A stretch of 11,524 nt of DNA from IMG/VR virus record IMGVR_UViG_2534681657_000015, positions 1 through 11,524 of that record; one strand, given 5' to 3'. Shown here piece after piece: positions 1 through 11,524 of the stretch. Origin of the DNA: a virus. Its lineage: Duplodnaviria; Heunggongvirae; Uroviricota; Caudoviricetes. Made by a program: the position numbers and the translations under genes. Position 1 is the first letter of the stretch; each line of letters starts with the position of its first letter. A model generated the notes under the pieces. The model worked only from the letters and a program-made list of their open reading frames with translations, was not told the DNA's origin and did no database searches.

Positions 1-1284
1 TTACTTCTTCGCCTCTGCAACCACTTTACTACCCACGCCGCGGTTATTGTATTCCCACATGCGGTTGTAGTTAGTGTCATTCAGATTGCGCTGTATTTCG
101 TCGTTATCATCTACGCTGCCGGTATTACCCGCAAACGGACGATTAGAGATCACCGCATCGGCCCACGGTTTAGCCGTGTTAAAACCTTCGTTGATGGCGC
201 TATCACGGATCACCACCTGACCGTTGGTATTGGCATCAACATCCAGCGAGCGGCCCAGTTGCGCCACACCATCACCGAAAGCATTGAAACGGCTGTTTAC
301 GGCGAGGAAACCGTAGTAAATGTTGGACAGCGTAGCCGGTGCAAACACATACGCTTCTTGCTGAGTACGTGAGTTCACCACGCGGAATTCGGTGTTATCG
401 AACACCACTGCGCCGCGACCAGAAACGATATCCACATCCCCTTCAATGTAGCTGTTGGTCACCAGCGTACGCGGCTGACGGTTGGTTTCCAGACGGTTCT
501 GCACACCGCTGTTGGTGACAAAGAAGGTGTTCTGACGACCGAGAATGTTAACGTTGTTAATCTGTACCTGGTCACCATCAGTACGCAGTGCCACCGCCGG
601 ATGGTTACCTGCATCTACGCTATCGCCCAGCGTGTTTTCGATGGTCAGATTTTGCAGTTGCAGGCCATTGTTTTGTGACCAGAAGACCGCAGAGCAGAGA
701 ACACCGATACTGTCGCTGCGTTTGCTCTGGCAGCTATCGTACATATACCACGCTGGTTTACCTGGCATATATTTGCCGCGCGGGTTGACGTCGTGACGCC
801 AGTCGGCAGGGCTCATGCCACCATCAAGGGAAAGCCCAATCTTCACATCAATCGGTTTTTCACCTGTACCGTACAGAGTAATTCCACCCGGAGCGGCAGG
901 GACATATACCGTTCCCTGATACTCACCAGGCATCACGGCAATATACTGGCGCTTGTTGGTACGCTTGATAATTGCCGCATCTACCGCCGCCTGAATCGTG
1001 GTATGCGTTACACCTTGAGTGCCCGCCGGGCCGACAACAAAGTCAGGTTGCGCAGGCAGGGTAATCGGGGAAGGATTCCACGCTGCAGCACCTGGTGTCA
1101 GGGATGCAAAATAGTGTTGAGCATCGAAATTCTGCGCTTCTTTTGCCGACAGAATCGGGCGAGAAGAGGTACCAGGCGCGGTTTGATCAGAAGGACGTTG
1201 ATCGGGCGGGGTTGAGCTACAGGCGGTCAGCGTCACGCCAAAAGCCAATGCCAGCGCCAGACGGGAAACTGAAAATGTGTTCAC
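1..1284 (-). CDS. ybhC: Host outer-membrane lipoprotein of the pectinesterase-like family (YbhC-type), complete ORF with signal peptide and lipobox
   Basis: 427-aa ORF; N-terminus MNTFSVSRLALALAFGVTLTAC is a lipoprotein signal peptide with an L-T-A-C lipobox; the body is Gly/Asn-rich and beta-helix-like, typical of pectinesterase-fold proteins. ybhC is the gene I recall flanking E. coli attB-lambda on the gal side, consistent with the adjacent att core. Confidence 0.85.
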   Translation of the reverse strand: MNTFSVSRLALALAFGVTLTACSSTPPDQRPSDQTAPGTSSRPILSAKEAQNFDAQHYFASLTPGAAAWNPSPITLPAQPDFVVGPAGTQGVTHTTIQAAVDAAIIKRTNKRQYIAVMPGEYQGTVYVPAAPGGITLYGTGEKPIDVKIGLSLDGGMSPADWRHDVNPRGKYMPGKPAWYMYDSCQSKRSDSIGVLCSAVFWSQNNGLQLQNLTIENTLGDSVDAGNHPAVALRTDGDQVQINNVNILGRQNTFFVTNSGVQNRLETNRQPRTLVTNSYIEGDVDIVSGRGAVVFDNTEFRVVNSRTQQEAYVFAPATLSNIYYGFLAVNSRFNAFGDGVAQLGRSLDVDANTNGQVVIRDSAINEGFNTAKPWADAVISNRPFAGNTGSVDDNDEIQRNLNDTNYNRMWEYNNRGVGSKVVAEAKK

Positions 1285-1320: not shown

Positions 1321-1428
1321 GTTGAAGCCTGCTTTTTTATACTAAGTTGGCATTATAAAAAAGCATTGCTTATCAATTTGTTGCAACGAACAGGTCACTA
1401 TCAGTCAAAATAAAATCATTATTTGATT
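1321..1428. other. attL: Prophage attL (B-O-P'): 15-bp lambda core GCTTTTTTATACTAA at 1331-1345 followed by the lambda P' arm with arm-type Int sites (AGGTCACTAT, CAGTCAAAAT)
   Basis: Direct read: gaagcctGCTTTTTTATACTAAgttggcattataaaaaagcattgcttatcaatttgttgcaacgaacaggtcactatcagtcaaaataaaatcattatttg matches the lambda attP P' arm from memory; the left side of the core is bacterial (B arm) sequence; the int stop codon lies inside the P' arm as in lambda. Confidence 0.85.
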
Positions 1429-2489
1429 TCAATTTTGTCCCACTCCCTGCCTCTGTCATCACGATACTGTGATGCCATGGTGTCCGACTTATGCCCGAGA
1501 AGATGTTGAGCAAACTTATCGCTTATCTGCTTCTCATAGAGTCTTGCAGACAAACTGCGCAACTCGTGAAAGGTAGGCGGATCCCCTTCGAAGGAAAGAC
1601 CTGATGCTTTTCGTGCGCGCATAAAATACCTTGATACTGTGCCGGATGAAAGCGGTTCGCGACGAGTAGATGCAATTATGGTTTCTCCGCCAAGAATCTC
1701 TTTGCATTTATCAAGTGTTTCCTTCATTGATATTCCGAGAGCATCAACATGCAATGCTGTTGGGATGGCAATTTTTACGCCTGTTTTGCTTTGCTCGACA
1801 TAAAGATATCCATCTACGATATCAGACCACTTCATTTCGCATAAATCACCAACTCGTTGCCCGGTAACAACAGCCAGTTCCATTGCAAGTCTGAGCCAAC
1901 ATGGTGATGATTCTGCTGCTTGATAAATTTTCAGGTATTCGTCAGCCGTAAGTCTTGATCTCCTTACCTCTGATTTTGCTGCGCGAGTGGCAGCGACAGG
2001 GTTTGTTGTTATATGGCCTTCAGCTATTGCCTCTCGGAATGCATCGCTCAGTGTTGATCTGATTAACTTGGCTGACGCCGCCTTGCCCTCGTCTATGTAT
2101 CCATTGAGCATTGCCGCAATTTCTTTTGTGGTGATGTCTTCAAGTGGAGCATCAGGCAGACCCCTCCTTATTGCTTTAATTTTGCTCATGTAATTTATGA
2201 GTGTCTTCTGCTTGATTCCTCTGCTGGCCAGGATTTTTTCGTAGCGATCAAGCCATGAATGTAACGTAACGGAATTATCACTGTTGATTCTCGCTGTCAG
2301 AGGCTTGTGTTTGTGTCCTGAAAATAACTCAATGTTGGCCTGTATAGCTTCAGTGATTGCGATTCGCCTGTCTCGGCCTAATCCAAACTCTTTACCCGTC
2401 CTTGGGTCCCTGTAGCAGTAATATCCATTGTTTCTTATATAAAGGTTAGGGGGTAAATCCCGGCGCTCATGACTTCGCCTTCTTCCCAT
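1419..2489 (-). CDS. int: Tyrosine site-specific integrase, lambda Int type
   Basis: 356-aa ORF beginning MGRRRSHERRDLPPNLYIRNNGYYCYRDPRTGKEFGLGRDRRIAITEAIQAN, matching lambda Int in length and sequence from memory; C-terminal catalytic region with HELRS...LGH...Y; sits immediately beside attL. Confidence 0.97.
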   Translation of the reverse strand: MGRRRSHERRDLPPNLYIRNNGYYCYRDPRTGKEFGLGRDRRIAITEAIQANIELFSGHKHKPLTARINSDNSVTLHSWLDRYEKILASRGIKQKTLINYMSKIKAIRRGLPDAPLEDITTKEIAAMLNGYIDEGKAASAKLIRSTLSDAFREAIAEGHITTNPVAATRAAKSEVRRSRLTADEYLKIYQAAESSPCWLRLAMELAVVTGQRVGDLCEMKWSDIVDGYLYVEQSKTGVKIAIPTALHVDALGISMKETLDKCKEILGGETIIASTRREPLSSGTVSRYFMRARKASGLSFEGDPPTFHELRSLSARLYEKQISDKFAQHLLGHKSDTMASQYRDDRGREWDKIEIK

Positions 2490-2685
2490 TTCTGATCCTC
2501 TTCAAAAGGCTACCTGTTACTGGTCGATTTAAGTCAACCTTTACCGCTGATTCGTGGAACAGATATTCTCTTCCATCCTTAACCGGAGGAGGGAATATCC
2601 TGCATTCGCGCACCCATCGACGAACTGTTTCAAGGCTTCTTGGGCGTCGCTGGCGAGCGTTCCACTCCTGAAGTGTCAAGTACAT
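2467..2685 (-). CDS. xis: Excisionase, lambda Xis type
   Basis: 72-aa ORF MYLTLQEWNARQRRPRSLETVRRWVRECRIFPPPVKDGREYLFHESAVKVDL; overlaps the int start by 23 nt as in lambda. Confidence 0.95.
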   Translation of the reverse strand: MYLTLQEWNARQRRPRSLETVRRWVRECRIFPPPVKDGREYLFHESAVKVDLNRPVTGSLLKRIRNGKKAKS

Positions 2686-2710
2686 CGCAAAGTCTCCGCA
2701 ATTACACGCA

Positions 2711-2732
2711 AGAAAAAACCGCCATCAGGCGG
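2711..2732 (-). terminator. Candidate intrinsic terminator on the minus strand (stem CCGCC / loop TGAT / GGCGG, then a TTTTTT run), overlapping the stop codon of the upstream 55-aa ORF
   Basis: Plus strand 2711-2732 agaaaaaaccgccatcaggcgg; its reverse complement gives a 5-bp GC stem followed by a U-run in the leftward transcript. Confidence 0.4.
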
Positions 2733-2892
2733 CTTGGTGTTCTTTCAGTTCTTCAATTCGAATATTGGTTACGTCTGCATGTGCTATCTGCGCCCACAGC
2801 ATCCAGTGGTCATAGCAGTCGCTGATGTTCTCGGCTTCGATAACTCTGTTGAATGGTTCTCCATTCCATTCACCTGTGACTCGGAAGTGCAT
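2725..2892 (-). CDS. Small hypothetical phage protein (55 aa), MHFRVTGEWNGEPFNRVIEAENISDCYDHWMLWAQIAHADVTNIRIEELKEHQAA
   Basis: Hand translation of the minus strand; ATG at 2892-2890 preceded by a GGGGA Shine-Dalgarno about 6 nt upstream; position corresponds to a small unnamed ORF I recall just upstream of xis in lambda. Not in the supplied ORF track (below its length cutoff); the overlapping 66-aa track ORF 2784-2984 is in another frame and has no comparable RBS. Confidence 0.45.
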   Translation of the reverse strand: MHFRVTGEWNGEPFNRVIEAENISDCYDHWMLWAQIAHADVTNIRIEELKEHQAA

Positions 2893-3134
2893 TTATCATC
2901 CCCATAAAACAAACCCCGCCGTAGCGAGTTCAGATAAAAGAAATCCTCGTCAGTGCGAGGATGCTGTTCATTGCTGCTATACACTTTTTTGCTCTCAACG
3001 TAAGCGGTAGCCCATTCTGTTGGGTTGGTGCAGTTGCTTTTAGGAAATGCTATTTACCCCTTAAATGTCGGCTGAAAGAGCTAAAATCCATGCAAAAAAT
3101 TTACGCAATTTTGTGTATTATTGTGCAGTAAGTA

Positions 3135-3737
3135 ATGAGCTATTTTCTGCGCAAAAAATGGATGGTAAATTTGTCCGGGTCAGGAAAAATTTTATGGGCG
3201 CTAAACATGAAAAAAGATTCGTATCCTTATTTGATTTGCATGACAGTTTCAGGGCTGATCTTTATTTTCCTTTTCTTCTGGTGGCGGGCAGATATCTACA
3301 GGGTCACGTTTCTTAATCAGAGTATATCCCACTATTACATTCTGTTTAGCATGGGAATAGCTTTTCTGTTATCTCTGTTTTGGGTTAAGAAGGGGATAGT
3401 AAAACAAAGCGGCTGGAAGAGTCTGTCAGCATACCTTAAGGTTTATGCAGGGATGTGCATATTTGCTGGATTTTTTCTGATTATACCCCTTACGACACTA
3501 ACTTATTTTTTGCCTGGAGAGACATCGTCTTATGTTGCACCGTATCGGTATACTTCCGGTAGTTCAAAAAGTTGTTCTGGAGCTGAGGTGGATGACCCCG
3601 ATCTACATGAGAATATTCGCATTTGCTATCCGTATGGCAATTATGAGTACGATAATATTATCTATGTTGAAAAGAAAATTAATATATTAGGTGCGGTAGT
3701 GACATATGCACAGACCGCGCGTGATGATACTGAATGA
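3135..3737 (+). CDS. Hypothetical integral membrane protein (about 177-200 aa) with three predicted TM helices and a Cys-containing soluble C-terminal domain; accessory (moron-like) gene, function unknown
   Basis: Long plus-strand ORF in a clearly AT-rich segment; hydrophobic stretches YLICMTVSGLIFIFLFFWW, YYILFSMGIAFLLSLFWV and GMCIFAGFFLIIPLTTLTYFL; C-terminal ~75 aa hydrophilic with three Cys. Start is uncertain: candidates are 3135 (longest), 3162 and 3207 (MKKDSY..., typical of a membrane protein N-terminus); none has a strong SD. Opposite orientation to the surrounding early-left operon. Confidence 0.6.
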   Translation: MSYFLRKKWMVNLSGSGKILWALNMKKDSYPYLICMTVSGLIFIFLFFWWRADIYRVTFLNQSISHYYILFSMGIAFLLSLFWVKKGIVKQSGWKSLSAYLKVYAGMCIFAGFFLIIPLTTLTYFLPGETSSYVAPYRYTSGSSKSCSGAEVDDPDLHENIRICYPYGNYEYDNIIYVEKKINILGAVVTYAQTARDDTE

Positions 3738-3781
3738 TATAGTATATAGCGGGCAAGTTTTAGTTAATTTATCGAGGTAAT

Positions 3782-3805
3782 ATAATTTACCTCGACTCGT
3801 TTGTT
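3782..3805 (+). terminator. Perfect 9-bp inverted repeat TCGAGGTAA-tataat-TTACCTCGA just downstream of the membrane-protein gene; possible terminator or operator-like palindrome
   Basis: Direct read of 3782-3805; followed by ctcgtttgttc (only moderately T-rich); the loop is the hexamer TATAAT. Confidence 0.3.
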
Positions 3806-3947
3806 CTGGTATTAATATTTCGCTTTACGACCGATTTTTATCTGATGATATCATGCGGTTTTCATATACTGACTTACTGTCTTTTCTCCGTTAGCGATTT
3901 TCTCCTGCTCAGCGATGATTTTATCTTTGGCTTCTAGTTAATTTCGC

Positions 3948-4169
3948 TCACTTCGAACCTCTCTGTTTACTGATAAGCTCCAGATCTTGCTGGCAACTGG
4001 CACAAGTCCGACAACCCTGAACGGCCAGTCGTCTTCGTTCATCTATCGGATCGCCACACTCACAACAATGAGTGGCAGATATAGCCTGGTGGTTCAGGCG
4101 GCGCATTTTTATTGCTGTGTTGCGCTGTAATTCTTCAATTTCTGATGCTGAATCAATTATGTCTGCCAT
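3948..4169 (-). CDS. DksA/TraR-family C4 zinc-finger protein (73 aa), likely RNA-polymerase secondary-channel binder
   Basis: MADIIDSASEIEELQRNTAIKMRRLNHQAISATHCCECGDPIDERRRLAVQGCRTCASCQQDLELISKQ: a CxxC-(17)-CxxC zinc-finger preceded by an acidic, probably coiled-coil N-terminus, the architecture of TraR/DksA-type proteins; size and position fit the lambda Orf73 TraR-like protein as I recall it. Confidence 0.7.
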   Translation of the reverse strand: MADIIDSASEIEELQRNTAIKMRRLNHQAISATHCCECGDPIDERRRLAVQGCRTCASCQQDLELISKQRGSK

Positions 4170-4220
4170 CTTTCATTAATCCCTGAATTGTTGGTTAATA
4201 CGCTTGAGGGTGAATGCGAA

Positions 4221-4247
4221 TAATAAAAAAGGAGCCTGTAGCTCCCT
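4221..4247 (-). terminator. Candidate intrinsic terminator on the minus strand (GGAGC / TACAG / GCTCC followed by TTTTTTATT)
   Basis: Plus strand taataaaaaaggagcctgtagctccct; the reverse complement gives a stem-loop plus U-run between the 71-aa ORF and the TraR-like gene. Confidence 0.35.
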
Positions 4248-4267
4248 GATGATTTTGCTTTTCATGT

Positions 4268-4483
4268 TCACCGTTCCTTAAAGACGCCGTTCAACATGCC
4301 GATCGCCAGGCTTAAATGAGTCGGTGTGAATCCCATCAGCGTTACCGTTTCGCGGTGCTTCTTTAGTACGCTACGGCAAATGTCATCGACGTTTTTATCC
4401 GGAAACTGCTGTCTGGCTTTTTTGATTTCAGAATTAGCCTGACGGGCAATGCTGCGAAGGGCGTTTTCTTGCTGAGGTGTCAT
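4268..4483 (-). CDS. Hypothetical small phage protein (71 aa from MTPQQENALRSIARQANSEIKKARQQ...; the track extends it to 93 aa from an ATG at 4549)
   Basis: Minus-strand ORF; the 4483 start forms an ATGA overlap with the stop of an upstream 27-aa micro-ORF, suggesting translational coupling; the 4549 start has no SD and is immediately preceded by an in-frame stop. Confidence 0.45.
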   Translation of the reverse strand: MTPQQENALRSIARQANSEIKKARQQFPDKNVDDICRSVLKKHRETVTLMGFTPTHLSLAIGMLNGVFKER

Positions 4484-4563
4484 TGAACAAGCCCCATGTC
4501 GGCAAGCATAAGCACACAGAATATGAAGCCCGCTGCCAGAAAAATGCATTCAGTGGTTGTCAT
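4480..4563 (-). CDS. Candidate 27-aa hydrophobic micro-ORF (MTTTECIFLAAGFIFCVLMLADMGLVQ), translationally coupled on both sides
   Basis: Hand translation; its ATG overlaps the orf63-like stop (ATGA at 4563-4560) and its stop overlaps the ATG of the 71-aa ORF (ATGA at 4483-4480). Too short for the ORF track. Confidence 0.25.
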   Translation of the reverse strand: MTTTECIFLAAGFIFCVLMLADMGLVQ

Positions 4564-4751
4564 ACCTGGTCTCTCTCATCTGCTTCTGCTTTCGCCACCA
4601 TCATTTCCAGCTTTTGTGAAAGGGATGCGGCTAACGTATGAAATTCTTCGTCTGTTTCTACTGGTATTGGCACAAACCTGACTCCAATTTGAGCGAGGCT
4701 ATGTGCCATCTCGATACTCGTTCTTAACTCAACGGGAGATGCTTTGTGCAT
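4560..4751 (-). CDS. Small early-left protein, lambda orf63-like (63 aa)
   Basis: [63 protein letters not shown]; size and position (second ORF upstream of exo) match lambda orf63 from memory. Confidence 0.65.
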   Translation of the reverse strand: MHKASPVELRTSIEMAHSLAQIGVRFVPIPVETDEEFHTLAASLSQKLEMMVAKAEADERDQV

Positions 4752-4906
4752 ACAGCTCCCCGTTTATTATTTATCTCCTCAGCCAGCCGCTGTGCTTTCA
4801 GGGGATTTCTGATAACAGAAAGGCCGGGAAATACCCAGCCTCGCTTTGTAACGGAGTAGACGAAAGTGATCGCACCTACCCGGATATTATCGTGAGGATG
4901 CTTCAT
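4724..4906 (-). CDS. Small early-left protein, lambda orf60a-like (60 aa from [17 protein letters not shown]...)
   Basis: The ATG at 4906-4904 forms an ATGA overlap with the exo stop (4903-4905); 60 aa matches lambda orf60a; the track's longer 62-aa version starts at 4912. Confidence 0.65.
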
Positions 4907-5583
4907 CGCCATTGCTCCCCAAATACAAAACCAATTTCAGCCAGTGCCTCGTCCATTTTTTCGATGAACTCCGGCACCATCTCGTCAAAACTCGCCATGT
5001 ACTTTTCATCCCGCTCAACCACGACATAATGCAGGCCTTCACGCTTCATACGCGGGTCATAGTTGGCAAAGTACCAGGCATCTTTTCGCGTCACCCACAT
5101 GCTGTACTGCACCTGGGCCATGTAAGCCGACTTTATGGCCTCGAAACCACCGAGCCGGAACTTCATGAAATCCCGGGAGGTAAACGGGCATTTCAGCTCA
5201 AGGCCATTGCCGTCACTGCATAAACCATCGGGAGAGCAGGCGGTACGCATACTTTCGTCGCGATAGATGATCGGGGATTCAGTAACATTCACGCCGGAAG
5301 TGAATTCAAACAGAGTTCTGGCGTCGTTCTCGTACTGTTTTCCCCATGCCAGCGCCTTAGCATTAACTTCCGGAGCCACACCGGTGCAAACCTCAGCCAG
5401 CAGGGTGTGGAAGTAGGACATTTTCATGTCAGGCCACTTTTTTCCGGAGCGGGGTTTTGCTATCACATTGTGAACTTCTGAAGCGGTGATGACGCCGAGC
5501 CGTAATTTGTGCCACGCATCATCCCCCTGTTCGACAGCTCTCACGTCGATTCCGGTACGCTGCAGGATAATGTCCGGTGTCAT
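4903..5583 (-). CDS. exo: Lambda exonuclease (Red-alpha), 5'-3' dsDNA exonuclease
   Basis: 226-aa [68 protein letters not shown]..., matching lambda Exo from memory in length and sequence; ATGA overlap with the bet stop. Confidence 0.97.
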
Positions 5584-6365
5584 GCAGCCACCTTCTGCTC
5601 AGTGGCTTTCTGTTTCAGGAATCCAAGAGCTTTCACTGCTTCGGCCTGTGTCAGTTCTGACGATGCGCGAATGTCGCGGCGAAATATCTGGGAACAGAGC
5701 GGCAATAAGTCGTCATCCCATGTTTTATCCAGGGCAATCAGCAGAGTGTTAATCTCCTGCATGGTTTCATCGTTAACCGGAGTGATGTCGCGTTCCGGCT
5801 GACGTTCTGCAGTGTATGCGGTATTTTCGACAATGCGCTCGGCTTCATCCTTGTCATAGATACCCGCAAATCCGAAGGCGAGACGGGCACACTGAATCAT
5901 GGCTTTATGCCGTAACATCCGTTTGGGATGCGACTGCCACGGTCCGGTGATTTCTCTGCCTTCGCGGGTTTTGAATGGTTCGCGGCGGCATTCATCCATC
6001 CACTCGGTAACGCAGATCGGATGATTGCGGTCCTTGCGGTAAATCCGGCATGTGCAGGATTCATTGTCCTGCTCAAAGTCCATGCCATCAAACTGCTGGT
6101 TTTCATTGATGATACGGGACCAGCCATCAACGCCCACCACCGGAACGATGCCGTTCTGCTTGTCAGGGAAGGCGTAAATTTCTTTCGTCCACGGATTAAG
6201 GCCGTACTGGTTGGCGACGATCAGCAATGCGATGAACTGCGCATCGCTGGCATCACCTTTAAATGCCGTCTGGCGAAGAGTGGTGATCAGTTCCTGTGGG
6301 TCGACAGAATCCATGCCGACGCGTTCAGCCAGCTTCCCAGCCAGCGTTGCGAGTGCTGTACTCAT
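5580..6365 (-). CDS. bet: Red-beta single-strand annealing protein (recombinase)
   Basis: 261-aa [75 protein letters not shown]..., lambda Bet. Confidence 0.97.
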
Positions 6366-6370
6366 CCGTT

Positions 6371-6787
6371 TTATACCTCTGAATCAATATCAACCTGGTG
6401 GTGAGCAATGGTTTCAACCATGTACCGGATGTGTTCTGCCATGCGCTCCTGAAACTCAACATCGTCATCAAACGCACGGGTAATGGCTTTTTTGCTGGCC
6501 CCGTGGCGTTGTAAATGATCGATGCAGAGTGATTCAAACAGGTGCTGGGGCAGACCTTTTTCCATGTCGTCTGCCAGTTCTGCCTCTTTCTCTTCACGGG
6601 CGATCTGCTGGTAGTGACGCGTCCAGCTCTGAGCCTCAAGACGATCCTGAATGTAATAAGCGTTCATGGCTGAACTCCTGAAATAGCTGTGAAAATATCG
6701 CCCGCGAAATGCCGGGCTGATTAGGAAAACAGGAAAGGGGGTTAGTGAATGCTTTTGCTTGATCTCAGTTTCAGTATTAATATCCAT
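6371..6787 (-). CDS. gam: Gam, RecBCD nuclease inhibitor (138-aa long form; the short form would start at the internal [13 protein letters not shown])
   Basis: 138-aa ORF ending ...[22 protein letters not shown], lambda Gam from memory; located immediately upstream of bet. Confidence 0.95.
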
Positions 6788-7719: not shown

Positions 7720-8301
7720 ATGAACAACTCATGGTGGCAGGAACTAATGCATTTTTTCCTGCAAGGAATGACACTTAAACAGTTGATTCATATGCTAATC
7801 ATCCTGATCATATTGATTATTGTTATGCCTGTAAGCGTAAAAGAATGGATAAACCTGCATAATCCAGAAATCCTTCCTCATTACTGGATGTATTACATCC
7901 TGTTGTTTTGCGTTAGCTATGTGCTTAACGGCGTTGTTAATTCCGCTTATCACGCTGTGACTGAAAGAATTGAGATATTCGCTGCTCAGAAGCGCAAATC
8001 TAAAGAAGAGAAATACGTGCAAGATTTGTTTGATTCGTTAACTCTTGGAGAAAGAGCGTATTTGGCATTCGCTGTAGCCGCTAATAACCAGCTAAAGACA
8101 GAAAAGGGAAGCCCTGAAGCAATCTCATTGCTCGAAAAAGGGCTTCTTATTCGGGTACCTTCTGCTACTGGATATCCTGAAATCGACCGTTTTGTTATCC
8201 CGGAACGCTATAGAAATGAGTGCTACATTAGGTTTGCTGGGAAGAAAGACAGTCTTATGGATGAACTTATCGCTCAGGATAAGCATGGCAAAAACAAGTA
8301 A
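7720..8301 (+). CDS. sieB: Superinfection exclusion protein B (SieB-type), inner-membrane protein
   Basis: 193-aa plus-strand ORF with N-terminal TM segments (LIHMLIILIILIIVMPV, YWMYYILLFCVSYVLNGVV), transcribed opposite to the early-left operon between ea10 and N, as sieB is in lambda/P22. Confidence 0.8.
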   Translation: MNNSWWQELMHFFLQGMTLKQLIHMLIILIILIIVMPVSVKEWINLHNPEILPHYWMYYILLFCVSYVLNGVVNSAYHAVTERIEIFAAQKRKSKEEKYVQDLFDSLTLGERAYLAFAVAANNQLKTEKGSPEAISLLEKGLLIRVPSATGYPEIDRFVIPERYRNECYIRFAGKKDSLMDELIAQDKHGKNK

Positions 8302-10322: not shown

Positions 10323-10649
10323 ATGACTAAAAATACTCGTTTTTCCCCCGAAGTCCGTCAACGGGCAGTCCGTATGGTTCTGGAAAGTCAGGGCGAATAT
10401 GACTCACAATGGGCGACAATTTGTTCCATTGCTCCAAAGACTGGCTGTACGCCGGAGACTCTGCGTGTCTGGGTTCGCCAGCATGAGCGGGATACCGGGG
10501 GCGGTGATGGAGGGCTCACCACCGCTGAACGTCAGCGTCTGAAAGAGCTGGAGCGTGAAAATCGTGAACTGCGCCGCAGTAACGATATTCTTCGCCAGGC
10601 TTCCGCTTATTTTGCGAAGGCGGAGTTCGACCGCCTCTGGAAAAAATGA
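10323..10649 (+). CDS. IS3-family transposase OrfA (HTH / leucine-zipper DNA-binding subunit), 108 aa
   Basis: [60 protein letters not shown]...[36 protein letters not shown]. Confidence 0.9.
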
Positions 10650-11524
10650 TGCCACTGCTGGATAAGCTGCGTGAGCAGTACGGGGTCGGACCGCTATGCA
10701 GCGAACTGCATATTGCCCCGTCAACGTATTACCACTGTCAGCAACAGCGACATCATCCGGATAAACGCAGTGCCCGTGCGCAGCGCGATAACTGGCTGAA
10801 GAAAGAGATACAGCGCGTATACGATGAAAATCACAAGGTATACGGTGTGCGTAAAGTCTGGCGTCAGTTGTTACGGGAAGGTATCAGAGTGGCCAGATGC
10901 ACTGTGGCACGTCTCATGGCGGTTATGGGACTTGCCGGTGTTCTCCGGGGTAAAAAGGTCCGTACGACCATCAGCCGGAAAGCCGTTGCCGCAGGCGACC
11001 GCGTAAACCGTCAGTTCGTGGCAGAACGACCTGACCAGCTGTGGGTGGCTGATTTTACTTACGTCAGCACATGGCGGGGCTTCGTCTATGTGGCGTTCAT
11101 CATTGATGTGTTTGCCGGATACATCGTGGGGTGGCGGGTCTCATCGTCCATGGAAACGACATTCGTGCTGGATGCACTGGAGCAGGCGTTATGGGCCCGT
11201 CGACCGTCCGGCACGGTCCATCACAGTGATAAAGGTTCTCAGTATGTATCGCTGGCCTACACACAGCGGCTTAAGGAAGCCGGATTACTGGCATCAACAG
11301 GAAGTACAGGCGACTCGTATGACAACGCGATGGCGGAGAGCATCAATGGTCTTTACAAAGCGGAGGTAATACACCGTAAGAGCTGGAAAAACCGTGCAGA
11401 AGTAGAACTGGCCACACTCACGTGGGTGGACTGGTATAACAATCGACGATTGCTGGAAAGGCTGGGCCATACTCCTCCGGCAGAAGCAGAAAAAGCTTAT
11501 TATGCTTCCATCGGAAACGATGAT
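10646..11524 (+). CDS. IS3-family transposase OrfB (DDE/RNase-H-fold catalytic domain), -1 frame relative to OrfA, 3' end off the window
   Basis: Hand translation from the ATG at 10646 gives [29 protein letters not shown]...[38 protein letters not shown]...[11 protein letters not shown]...[20 protein letters not shown]..., an open frame to the window end containing integrase-core motifs (D...D...E). Absent from the ORF track, presumably because no stop codon lies inside the window. Confidence 0.85.

What the first reader, a model, noticed from the sequence alone, without database searches (positions are those of the whole stretch)
2893..3947. AT-rich replacement segment encoding an uncharacterised three-TM membrane protein, anti-sense to the early-left operon
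Between the xis-proximal small ORF and the TraR-like gene, where I recall lambda carrying ea8.5 and ea22 on the minus strand, this prophage has about 1.05 kb of conspicuously AT-rich DNA. Its only substantial ORF (3135/3207-3737) is on the plus strand, opposite to every neighbouring early gene. The product has three strongly hydrophobic helices and a roughly 75-residue Cys-containing C-terminal domain that I cannot place in any family. A perfect 9-bp palindrome follows the gene. Low GC, opposite orientation and placement in a known lambdoid variable region are the signature of a moron, a gene expressed from the lysogen. By analogy with sieB, rexAB and other membrane-bound exclusion proteins it is a candidate superinfection-exclusion, abortive-infection or lysogenic-conversion factor, but the function is inference only.
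Basis: partly seen in the sequence, partly recalled or inferred. Interest (0 to 1): 0.78.

Follow-up and report, generated by a model that had tools for sequence, protein, structure and literature searches.

The report
Phage 434-type membrane-protein moron cassette
This is a real, self-contained accessory gene cassette, also present in classic phage 434 and about 18% of complete E. coli genomes. It encodes an uncharacterised inner-membrane protein with a small periplasmic domain. It recurs in known phage-defence hotspots, but no function has been shown.

Summary
Window 2963-3935 replaces lambda's ea8.5 and ea22 in a lambdoid prophage at att-lambda. It is the most AT-rich stretch of the window and carries one plus-strand gene followed by a perfect 9-bp-stem hairpin.

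The true start is 3207, not 3135, giving 176 aa. The protein has three TM helices in an N-in, C-out orientation, and a roughly 75-aa five-stranded OB-like barrel. Two Cys in that barrel are the only invariant residues across 38 homologues.

It matches no Pfam, NCBIfam or PADLOC family, and only PHROG 1416, which has no known function. It is not a homologue of P22 SieA.

The segment is 98.7-99.7% identical to phages 434, mEp332 and 2B8. The same promoter-gene-hairpin cassette (76% nt identity) lies in the gpA-gpQ defence hotspot of P2-like prophages. Rousset et al. 2022 listed a 52%-identical relative there as an untested '3 TM' system with 470 occurrences. More distant orthologues sit at a fixed chromosomal locus in Enterobacter.

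So "moron" is well supported. Superinfection exclusion at the DNA-entry step is the best guess, at about 0.4, and remains inference. Interest is moderate: this is a good candidate for experiment, not a surprise.

The parts
2943..2962 (-). Hairpin at the left junction, annotated as terminator tL4 in the phage 434 record M60848. It is the last stretch still shared with lambda.
   Evidence: Terminator-like site on the minus strand. M60848 annotation mapped by the match. Lambda homology ends at 2962.
2963..3935 (.). Replacement segment of 973 bp that stands where lambda has ea8.5 and ea22.
   Evidence: blastn against lambda NC_001416 with the lambda annotation. GC is about 38%.
3070..3827 (+). Mobile cassette (upstream region, gene and hairpin) shared with the copy in an E. 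coli P2-like prophage hotspot.
   Evidence: 76.3% nt identity over 761 nt to L021 5864-6619. L021 lies between the portal gene and gpA.
3101..3127 (+). Three direct heptamers at a 10-bp period (TTACGCA, TTGTGTA, TTGTGCA). Candidate regulator-binding array. Two of them are the 'CII site' in the 434 annotation.
   Evidence: Alignment with P2-borne copies, which carry 1-3 or more TTGTGCA units at the same place. 434 annotation. Function is inferred.
3163..3171 (+). Candidate extended -10 promoter element, TGGTAAATT.
   Evidence: TGnTAAnTT is conserved at the same distance from the ATG in the lambdoid, E. coli P2, Salmonella P2, Cedecea and Citrobacter copies. It is absent from the chromosomal Enterobacter, Klebsiella and Pseudescherichia copies. 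This is a consensus-level inference; no transcript data are available.
3207..3737 (+). Gene for a 176-aa inner-membrane protein: TM1 about residues 7-27, TM2 about 40-59, TM3 about 80-101, and a periplasmic beta domain at 102-176 with invariant C123 and C140.
   Evidence: ORF. Start fixed by homologues. AlphaFold2 pLDDT 85.3 for the full protein and 89.9 for the domain. Charge bias and exactly two Cys in all 38 members. dN/dS about 0.1.
3772..3795 (+). Perfect 9-bp-stem hairpin 35 nt after the stop codon. Candidate intrinsic terminator with a weak T tract.
   Evidence: The stem is kept in the P2-borne copy with one compensatory pair change.
3851..3951 (-). Relic of an ea22-like gene. The first five codons of lambda ea22 (VSEIN, 3937-3951) run into a stop. 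A 28-codon out-of-frame stretch resembles the Ea22-like ORF next to the P2-borne cassette.
   Evidence: Translations and comparison. RefSeq annotates an 'ead/Ea22-like family protein, incomplete' next to the P2 copy. The second part rests on a short match of 44 nt at 77%.

Best explanation
The segment is a moron: an independently transcribed accessory cassette that replaced ea8.5 and ea22 in a lambda/434-type prophage.

Its own extended -10 promoter (about 3163-3171), preceded by three phased TTGTGCA-like repeats, drives plus-strand transcription. Transcription proceeds to a hairpin at 3772-3795, antisense to the pL operon. This would let the gene be made in the lysogen while pL is repressed.

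The product is a 176-aa inner-membrane protein with N-in, C-out topology and three TM helices. It displays a small disulfide-stapled OB-like beta barrel in the periplasm. A conserved strand from the TM1-TM2 loop packs against that barrel.

The most likely role is superinfection exclusion at the envelope. In that model the periplasmic domain interferes with the incoming phage's DNA-delivery apparatus at the inner membrane, without killing the cell.

Shown here: the cassette structure, gene model, predicted topology and fold, purifying selection, and hotspot location.

Inferred: promoter activity, expression in the lysogen, the disulfide, and the exclusion function itself.
For: - Replacement at the ea8.5/ea22 position, with deviant GC.
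- The same cassette, including upstream DNA and the hairpin, lies in the P2 gpA-gpQ hotspot in E. coli, Salmonella and Klebsiella. This locus holds old/tin and many validated defence systems (PMC9122126).
- A 52%-identical relative is system 4 by abundance at that locus, with 470 occurrences.
- A conserved extended -10 element is found only in the mobile copies. The hairpin is more stable than shuffled controls.
- Loop 2 is net positive in 38 of 38 members. Each member has exactly two Cys in the C-domain, and these are the only invariant residues. The models are confident.
- dN/dS is about 0.1, and lowest in the C-domain.
- The Phytobacter copy sits next to DUF4062/TPR STAND-like genes.
- There are precedents for small prophage-expressed inner-membrane proteins that block DNA entry: HK97 gp15, which also has non-phage enterobacterial homologues (PMC3594210), and the 3-TM, 162-164-aa P22 SieA (PMC10883804).
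Against: - There is no experimental evidence of any kind.
- There is no sequence or profile similarity to SieA (hhalign probability 0.2%), SieB, Rex or any PADLOC model.
- The P2 hotspot also holds non-defence cargo such as partition systems and toxins.
- Orthologues are fixed at one chromosomal locus across the Enterobacter cloacae complex, which suggests a cellular role.
- The 78%-identical allele in E. coli P2-like prophages is mostly frameshifted.
- Strong purifying selection is not the signature of an arms-race gene.
- The T tract after the hairpin is weak.
Confidence: 0.4

Rival explanations
1. It is a lysogenic-conversion envelope factor unrelated to phage exclusion. The periplasmic domain would protect against, or sense, a periplasm-acting agent such as a colicin or bacteriocin, a T6SS effector or an antimicrobial peptide, or it would modify an envelope process. 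Phages would have captured a cellular gene that benefits the host.
For: - Orthologues are vertically inherited at a syntenic, non-prophage locus next to a LysR regulator across Enterobacter species. Stand-alone copies occur in Klebsiella, Phytobacter, Proteus, Providencia and Pseudomonas.
- Purifying selection is strong.
- The N-in, C-out 3-TM topology is that of ColE1-type immunity proteins (from memory).
- The best fold match is to DUF1093/YxeA-type small extracytoplasmic proteins.
- Morons such as lom and bor act on host fitness rather than on phages (PMC3594210).
Against: - No toxin gene lies next to any copy examined.
- The mobile copies are concentrated in two phage accessory hotspots, one of which is enriched in defence genes.
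Confidence: 0.3
2. It is an abortive-infection or membrane-effector protein. It would sense infection and depolarise or permeabilise the inner membrane, killing the infected cell.
For: Membrane proteins are common effectors in defence systems found in the same hotspots (PMC9122126). One family member has a marginal RexB hit at E = 0.09.
Against: - It is a single gene with no partner sensor in any context.
- The most conserved part is periplasmic, not the TM bundle.
- It is carried constitutively in 18% of complete E. coli genomes and in Enterobacter core chromosomes.
- The RexB hit is at noise level.
Confidence: 0.1
3. It serves the phage's own life cycle, for example as a CII-activated gene made during establishment of lysogeny whose transcript also acts as antisense RNA to the distal pL operon. 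Alternatively, it is a decaying passenger with no current function.
For: - The curated 434 genome annotates TTGT-N6-TTGT upstream as a CII-binding site.
- The transcript would be antisense to pL read-through towards xis and int.
- The related allele in E. coli P2-like prophages is usually frameshifted.
Against: - The repeat array is conserved in P2-borne copies. P2-like phages lack a lambda-type CII (from memory).
- The heptamer is TTGTGCA rather than TTGC.
- dN/dS of about 0.1 and intact ORFs in 915 complete genomes argue against decay of the lambdoid allele.
- Chromosomal orthologues exist outside phages.
Confidence: 0.1

Closest known systems
Phage 434 CPT_434_36 'putative membrane protein' (also in mEp332 and 2B8; RefSeq WP_000120065.1)
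   Same: The same gene: 98.5-100% amino-acid identity and the same position between orf55 and the TraR-like gene.
   Different: Nothing differs except the annotated start codons (TTG at window 3171 in 434, ATG at 3135 in RefSeq). No function is attached to any of these records.
'3 TM' single-gene system 4 of the E. coli P2 gpA-gpQ hotspot (Rousset et al. 2022, Table S5B)
   Same: Same family: 52% identity over 168 aa, E = 5e-57, with the same architecture. Closer alleles (55-78% identity) occupy the same hotspot in E. coli, Salmonella and Klebsiella.
   Different: It is carried by a myovirus at a different locus. No sequence match was found in the paper's Table S2 of systems evaluated for defence, so it gives no functional information.
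P22 SieA
   Same: It is a prophage-expressed inner-membrane protein of 162-164 aa with three predicted TM helices and no signal peptide. It is sufficient alone to block DNA injection (PMC10883804).
   Different: No homology: hhalign probability 0.2%. In SieA the soluble stretch lies between TM1 and TM2, and there is no C-terminal beta domain or Cys pair (sequence).
HK97 gp15 moron (YebO-like)
   Same: It is a moron with its own expression signals. It encodes a small inner-membrane protein that blocks genome entry, and its homologues are mostly non-phage enterobacterial genes (PMC3594210).
   Different: gp15 is smaller and, from memory, has a single TM helix. It sits in the tail operon. Sequence relatedness was not tested because no gp15 sequence was at hand.
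DUF1093/YxeA and other small OB or cold-shock-like barrels
   Different: The scores show fold-level resemblance only. There is no Pfam match. Identity is 10%, and no functional inference can be drawn.

Membership tests
Moron (Juhala/Hendrix definition as summarised in PMC3594210) | Extra or replacement DNA relative to closely related phages | tested here: met
   Window 2963-3935 has no counterpart in lambda, while both flanks are 97-99% identical to it.
Moron (Juhala/Hendrix definition as summarised in PMC3594210) | Nucleotide composition different from the surrounding genes | tested here: met
   GC is 38.7% against 45.5% for the prophage and 47-49% for the neighbours. The lowest-GC window of the whole sequence lies here.
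Moron (Juhala/Hendrix definition as summarised in PMC3594210) | Own promoter | tested here: inconclusive
   A conserved extended -10 element (TGnTAAnTT) lies 36-44 nt upstream of the ATG in all mobile copies. The generic two-hexamer scan found nothing convincing. No transcript data are available.
Moron (Juhala/Hendrix definition as summarised in PMC3594210) | Own terminator | tested here: inconclusive
   The hairpin folds at -12.9 kcal/mol with z = -3.3, and is conserved with a compensatory change in the P2 copy. The T tract (CTCGTTTGTT) is weak.
Moron (Juhala/Hendrix definition as summarised in PMC3594210) | Expression from the repressed prophage | not testable with these tools
   This needs RNA-seq or 5'-RACE in a lysogen.
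P22 SieA family | Sequence or profile homology to SieA types A-C | tested here: not met
   hhalign of the 38-sequence profile against P22 SieA gives probability 0.2%. tblastn against the phage collection finds only 434-type phages.
P22 SieA family | Blocks DNA injection when expressed alone | not testable with these tools
   An experiment is required.
SieB (PF14163) | Match to the Pfam SieB model | tested here: not met
   The target has no Pfam hit. The window's real SieB is a separate gene at 7720-8301.
Known defence systems (PADLOC-DB 2.0.0) | Match to any defence-protein model | tested here: not met
   The query has no hit at E up to 1. Among 38 family members there are only three single hits, with E between 0.09 and 0.46.
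PHROG 1416 (unknown function) | Match to the family profile | tested here: met
   E = 7e-51 over residues 113-200 of the 200-aa ORF, covering profile positions 1-88 of 90. The profile covers only TM3 and the C-domain, probably because it was built from truncated ORF calls.
P2-hotspot '3 TM' system 4 (Rousset 2022 Table S5B) | Homology and shared architecture | tested here: met
   BLASTP gives 52% identity over 168 aa, E = 5e-57.
NfeD-like short proteins (TM helices plus C-terminal OB domain, PF01957) | Match to the NfeD Pfam model, with a cytoplasmic OB domain | tested here: not met
DUF1093/YxeA | Match to the Pfam model, or a strong fold match | tested here: not met

The most novel reading that the evidence does not exclude
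The family is a previously unrecognised single-gene superinfection-exclusion or defence protein. It would be a 3-TM inner-membrane anchor presenting a disulfide-stapled OB-like periplasmic domain that blocks genome delivery by incoming phages. It would travel as a promoter-gene-terminator cassette between the lambdoid exo-xis region and the P2 gpA-gpQ hotspot, and would be controlled through the phased TTGTGCA repeat array by an unidentified regulator.
Probability: 0.3. Interest if true: 0.6.

Novelty: new member of a known kind. Interest (0 to 1): 0.4.

Why it matters
The gene is common. It is in 982 of 5,426 complete E. coli genomes, including O157:H7, O55:H7 and strain 042. It is also in the textbook phage 434 and in one of the most frequent cargoes of the P2 defence hotspot. 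Yet it has no family assignment and no tested function.

If it blocks phage DNA entry, it would add a new protein family and a new periplasmic fold to the few known injection-blocking proteins. It would also help explain resistance of clinical and STEC lineages to temperate or therapeutic phages.

If instead it has an envelope function, the Enterobacter orthologues offer a way to find it.

Either way the cassette is small (about 760 bp with native signals) and directly testable.

Tried and rejected
- Pfam, NCBIfam and PADLOC scans of the protein, and of all 38 aligned homologues for Pfam and PADLOC, gave nothing above noise.
- A PDB profile search gave only marginal TM-region matches with E of 0.1 or more.
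- Foldseek against viral structures gave nothing with E below 0.01. The afdb50 library was unavailable.
- P22 SieA homology is rejected.
- A 3,074-aa protein with eight weak matches (P0124) is a repetitive adhesin-like protein whose C-x-G-x-x-C motif matches by chance.
- The 200-aa ORF from 3135 and the 434 TTG start at 3171 are rejected in favour of 3207.
- The 56-aa ORF at 2961-3131, annotated in 434 as a second membrane protein, has no Pfam hit. It lies mostly outside the conserved cassette, so it is probably spurious.
- Rfam found no RNA family in 2850-4000.
- Literature searches found no study of the gene. It is absent from the supplements of Vassallo 2022 and DefensePredictor 2026.
- Brenes & Laub 2025 (Cell Host Microbe 33:1004) could not be read. 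It might contain a relevant test.

Full report
**Context**

The window is the left arm of a lambdoid prophage integrated at att-lambda in E. coli. In order it carries:
- ybhC (1-1284, minus strand), int, xis and a 55-aa ORF;
- the target segment;
- a TraR/DksA zinc-finger gene, DUF1382, DUF1317, exo, bet, gam, kil and cIII;
- DUF2528, sieB (plus strand), N, a cI-type repressor, cro and cII;
- an IS3-family element.

**Observation check**

- Composition: GC of 2893-3947 is 38.7%. The prophage as a whole is 45.5% and the immediate neighbours are 47-49%. The lowest-GC 300-bp window of the whole sequence (0.34) is 3601-3900.
- ORF: the only substantial ORF is on the plus strand.
- Hairpin: a perfect 9-bp inverted repeat with a 6-nt loop lies at 3772-3795. 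It folds at -12.9 kcal/mol, better than all 200 shuffles.
- Position relative to lambda: blastn against lambda gives exact junctions. Window 1331-2962 and 3936-5000 are 98.6% and 97.2% identical to lambda. The intervening 973 bp replace lambda 29356-30379, which is ea8.5 plus ea22.

**Gene model**

The start is 3207, not 3135.
- All 21 homologues aligned first begin at MKK(D/Y)SYP.
- Copies in P2-like prophages have in-frame stop codons just upstream (sequences).
- The candidate promoter lies downstream of 3135.

The product is 176 aa. dN/dS against copies that are 59-78% identical is 0.09-0.16. It is lower in the C-terminal domain (0.05-0.08) than in the membrane part (0.10-0.14). The gene is therefore real and under purifying selection.

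**Protein**

- Three TM segments are seen by Kyte-Doolittle analysis and three long helices (5-33, 38-61, 70-101) by AlphaFold2 (mean pLDDT 85.3).
- The C-terminal 75 residues form five strands. Modelled alone, this domain has pLDDT 89.9.
- A short strand from the TM1-TM2 loop (the invariant TFL) is modelled next to the domain.
- Across 38 homologues down to 17% identity, the only invariant residues are C123 and C140.
- Every member has exactly two Cys in the domain. The TM2-TM3 loop is net positive in 38 of 38 members.
- I infer N-in, C-out topology and a periplasmic, disulfide-bonded domain. The topology and the disulfide are inferences, not measurements.

**Family**

- The protein has no Pfam, NCBIfam or PADLOC hit. 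The same holds for all 38 members against Pfam and PADLOC.
- PHROG 1416 (unknown function) matches TM3 plus the domain.
- An exhaustive profile search of 1.84 billion cluster representatives found only 61 relatives. Nearly all are 166-189 aa with the same architecture, or fragments.
- They come from Enterobacterales and Pseudomonas, and all are annotated as hypothetical.
- Other structure and profile searches found nothing.

**Where it occurs**

- *Lambdoid phages.* The 1,055-bp segment is 98.7-99.7% identical to phages 434, mEp332 and 2B8. In 434 it is annotated only as a putative membrane protein.
- *E. coli genomes.* The CDS is in 982 of 5,426 complete E. coli genomes. Of these, 915 are at 95% identity or more, including O157:H7, O55:H7 and strain 042, always at the same prophage position.
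- *P2-like prophages.* Homologues of 55-78% identity in E. coli, Salmonella and Klebsiella lie in the variable gap between the portal gene Q and the replication gene A. Rousset et al. 2022 showed this locus to be a defence hotspot holding old and tin (PMC9122126). Their Table S5B lists a 52%-identical relative as system 4, with 470 occurrences, annotated only '3 TM'. No sequence match was found in their table of systems evaluated for defence.
- *Chromosomal copies.* More distant orthologues (33-48% identity) are not in prophages. Across the Enterobacter cloacae complex the gene sits at one syntenic locus directly after a LysR-type regulator gene. In Phytobacter it sits next to DUF4062/TPR STAND-like genes. 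In Cedecea it sits next to an integrase fragment.

**Cassette anatomy**

The lambdoid copy and an E. coli P2-borne copy share 76% nt identity over window 3070-3827. That span covers 137 nt upstream of the ATG and 90 nt downstream of the stop, including the hairpin. One stem pair of the hairpin changes in a compensatory way.

Upstream, all mobile copies keep an extended -10 element (TGnTAAnTT; window 3163-3171) 36-44 nt before the ATG. The chromosomal Enterobacter-type copies lack it.

Further upstream lie direct heptamers at a 10-bp period. In the window these are TTACGCA, TTGTGTA and TTGTGCA at 3101-3127. The P2 copies have one to three or more perfect TTGTGCA units. The 434 annotation calls two of these a CII site. 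Their conservation in P2-like phages makes a different, unidentified regulator more likely.

To the right of the hairpin, the first five codons of ea22 survive, together with a short coiled-coil-like relic. The P2-borne copy is flanked by an incomplete Ea22-like gene. This suggests a block containing both moved between the two phage types.

**Interpretation**

"Moron" is well supported. The segment is replacement DNA with deviant composition and its own conserved expression signals. It is oriented against the early operon and is mobile between unrelated phage backbones.

What it does is inference. I favour superinfection exclusion at the DNA-entry step, at about 0.4. The reasons are:
- the protein puts its most conserved part in the periplasm;
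- it is a single gene;
- it sits in two accessory hotspots, one of which is a documented defence locus;
- there are precedents, namely HK97 gp15, whose homologues are also mostly non-phage enterobacterial genes (PMC3594210), and P22 SieA, a 3-TM protein of 162-164 aa (PMC10883804).

It is not a SieA homologue (hhalign probability 0.2%).

The main rival, at about 0.3, is an envelope or immunity-type conversion factor. The fixed chromosomal orthologues and the strong purifying selection favour that reading. Abortive infection, and a life-cycle, CII-linked or decaying role, each get about 0.1.

**Novelty and limits**

The sequence is not new. It is part of phage 434, and a relative was catalogued in 2022. 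The family is uncharacterised and has no domain assignment.

I could not test transcription, topology or phenotype. I could not search AFDB or read Brenes & Laub 2025.

Noticed in passing
window 10323-11524 (ALIL pseudoknot at 10604-10720): An IS3-family element follows directly after cII. It has a transposase orfA with an HTH_Tnp_1 domain and the Rfam ALIL frameshift pseudoknot. The prophage's replication region is therefore interrupted, and the prophage may be defective.
   Followed up: partly
window 3948-4169 (-); lambda NC_001416 30392-30613: The 73-aa TraR/DksA zinc-finger ORF is intact and nearly identical in lambda. The lambda RefSeq record shown here has no CDS annotated at that position. 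From memory, this is 'orf73' of the exo-xis literature.
   Followed up: partly
window 3851-3951 (-); L021 6622-7004; L026 4634-5005: A relic of ea22 lies to the right of the cassette: five N-terminal codons plus an out-of-frame coiled-coil-like stretch. The copy in an E. coli P2-like prophage is flanked by an incomplete Ea22-like gene. This suggests joint transfer between lambdoid and P2-like phages.
   Followed up: partly
window 3101-3127; L019 5895-5921; L021 5895-5911: Direct TTGTGCA heptamers at an exact 10-bp period lie upstream of the candidate promoter. Copy number varies between cassettes. The binding factor is unknown, and two units were annotated as a CII site in phage 434.
   Followed up: partly
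L026 3956-4531; proteins P0186, P0188, P0193: The 78%-identical allele in E. coli P2-like prophages is usually frameshifted. This produces a 112-aa ORF seen on at least 1,000 contigs. The 90-position PHROG 1416 profile probably derives from such truncated calls.
   Followed up: partly
window 7720-8301 (+): sieB (PF14163, E = 1e-25) is a second plus-strand, AT-rich gene (40% GC) inside the minus-strand early-left region. This prophage therefore carries at least one recognised exclusion gene in addition to the target.
   Followed up: no
L027 (JARKOR010000073.1, 'Candidatus Nanosynbacter' MAG): A 3.5-kb contig assigned to a Nanosynbacter MAG carries the E. coli prophage gene at 99% identity, along with lambda exo. 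This is almost certainly a binning contaminant.
   Followed up: no
L007/L029-L032/L036/L037, gene at 6001-6510: In Enterobacter species the orthologue starts 17 nt after the stop of a same-strand LysR-type regulator gene and is followed by a HAMP-GGDEF protein gene. It lacks the extended -10 element of the mobile copies, so co-transcription with the regulator is possible.
   Followed up: partly
window 2961-3131 (+): A 56-aa ORF is annotated as a second 'putative membrane protein' in the curated 434 genome. It has no Pfam hit and lies mostly outside the DNA shared with the P2-borne cassette, so it is probably not a gene.
   Followed up: partly
L010 5227-5831; L018 5284-5888: Two small same-strand ORFs (81 and 119 aa, no Pfam hit) precede the homologue in several Salmonella P2-like prophages. 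They are absent from others, so they look like separate hotspot cargo.
   Followed up: no
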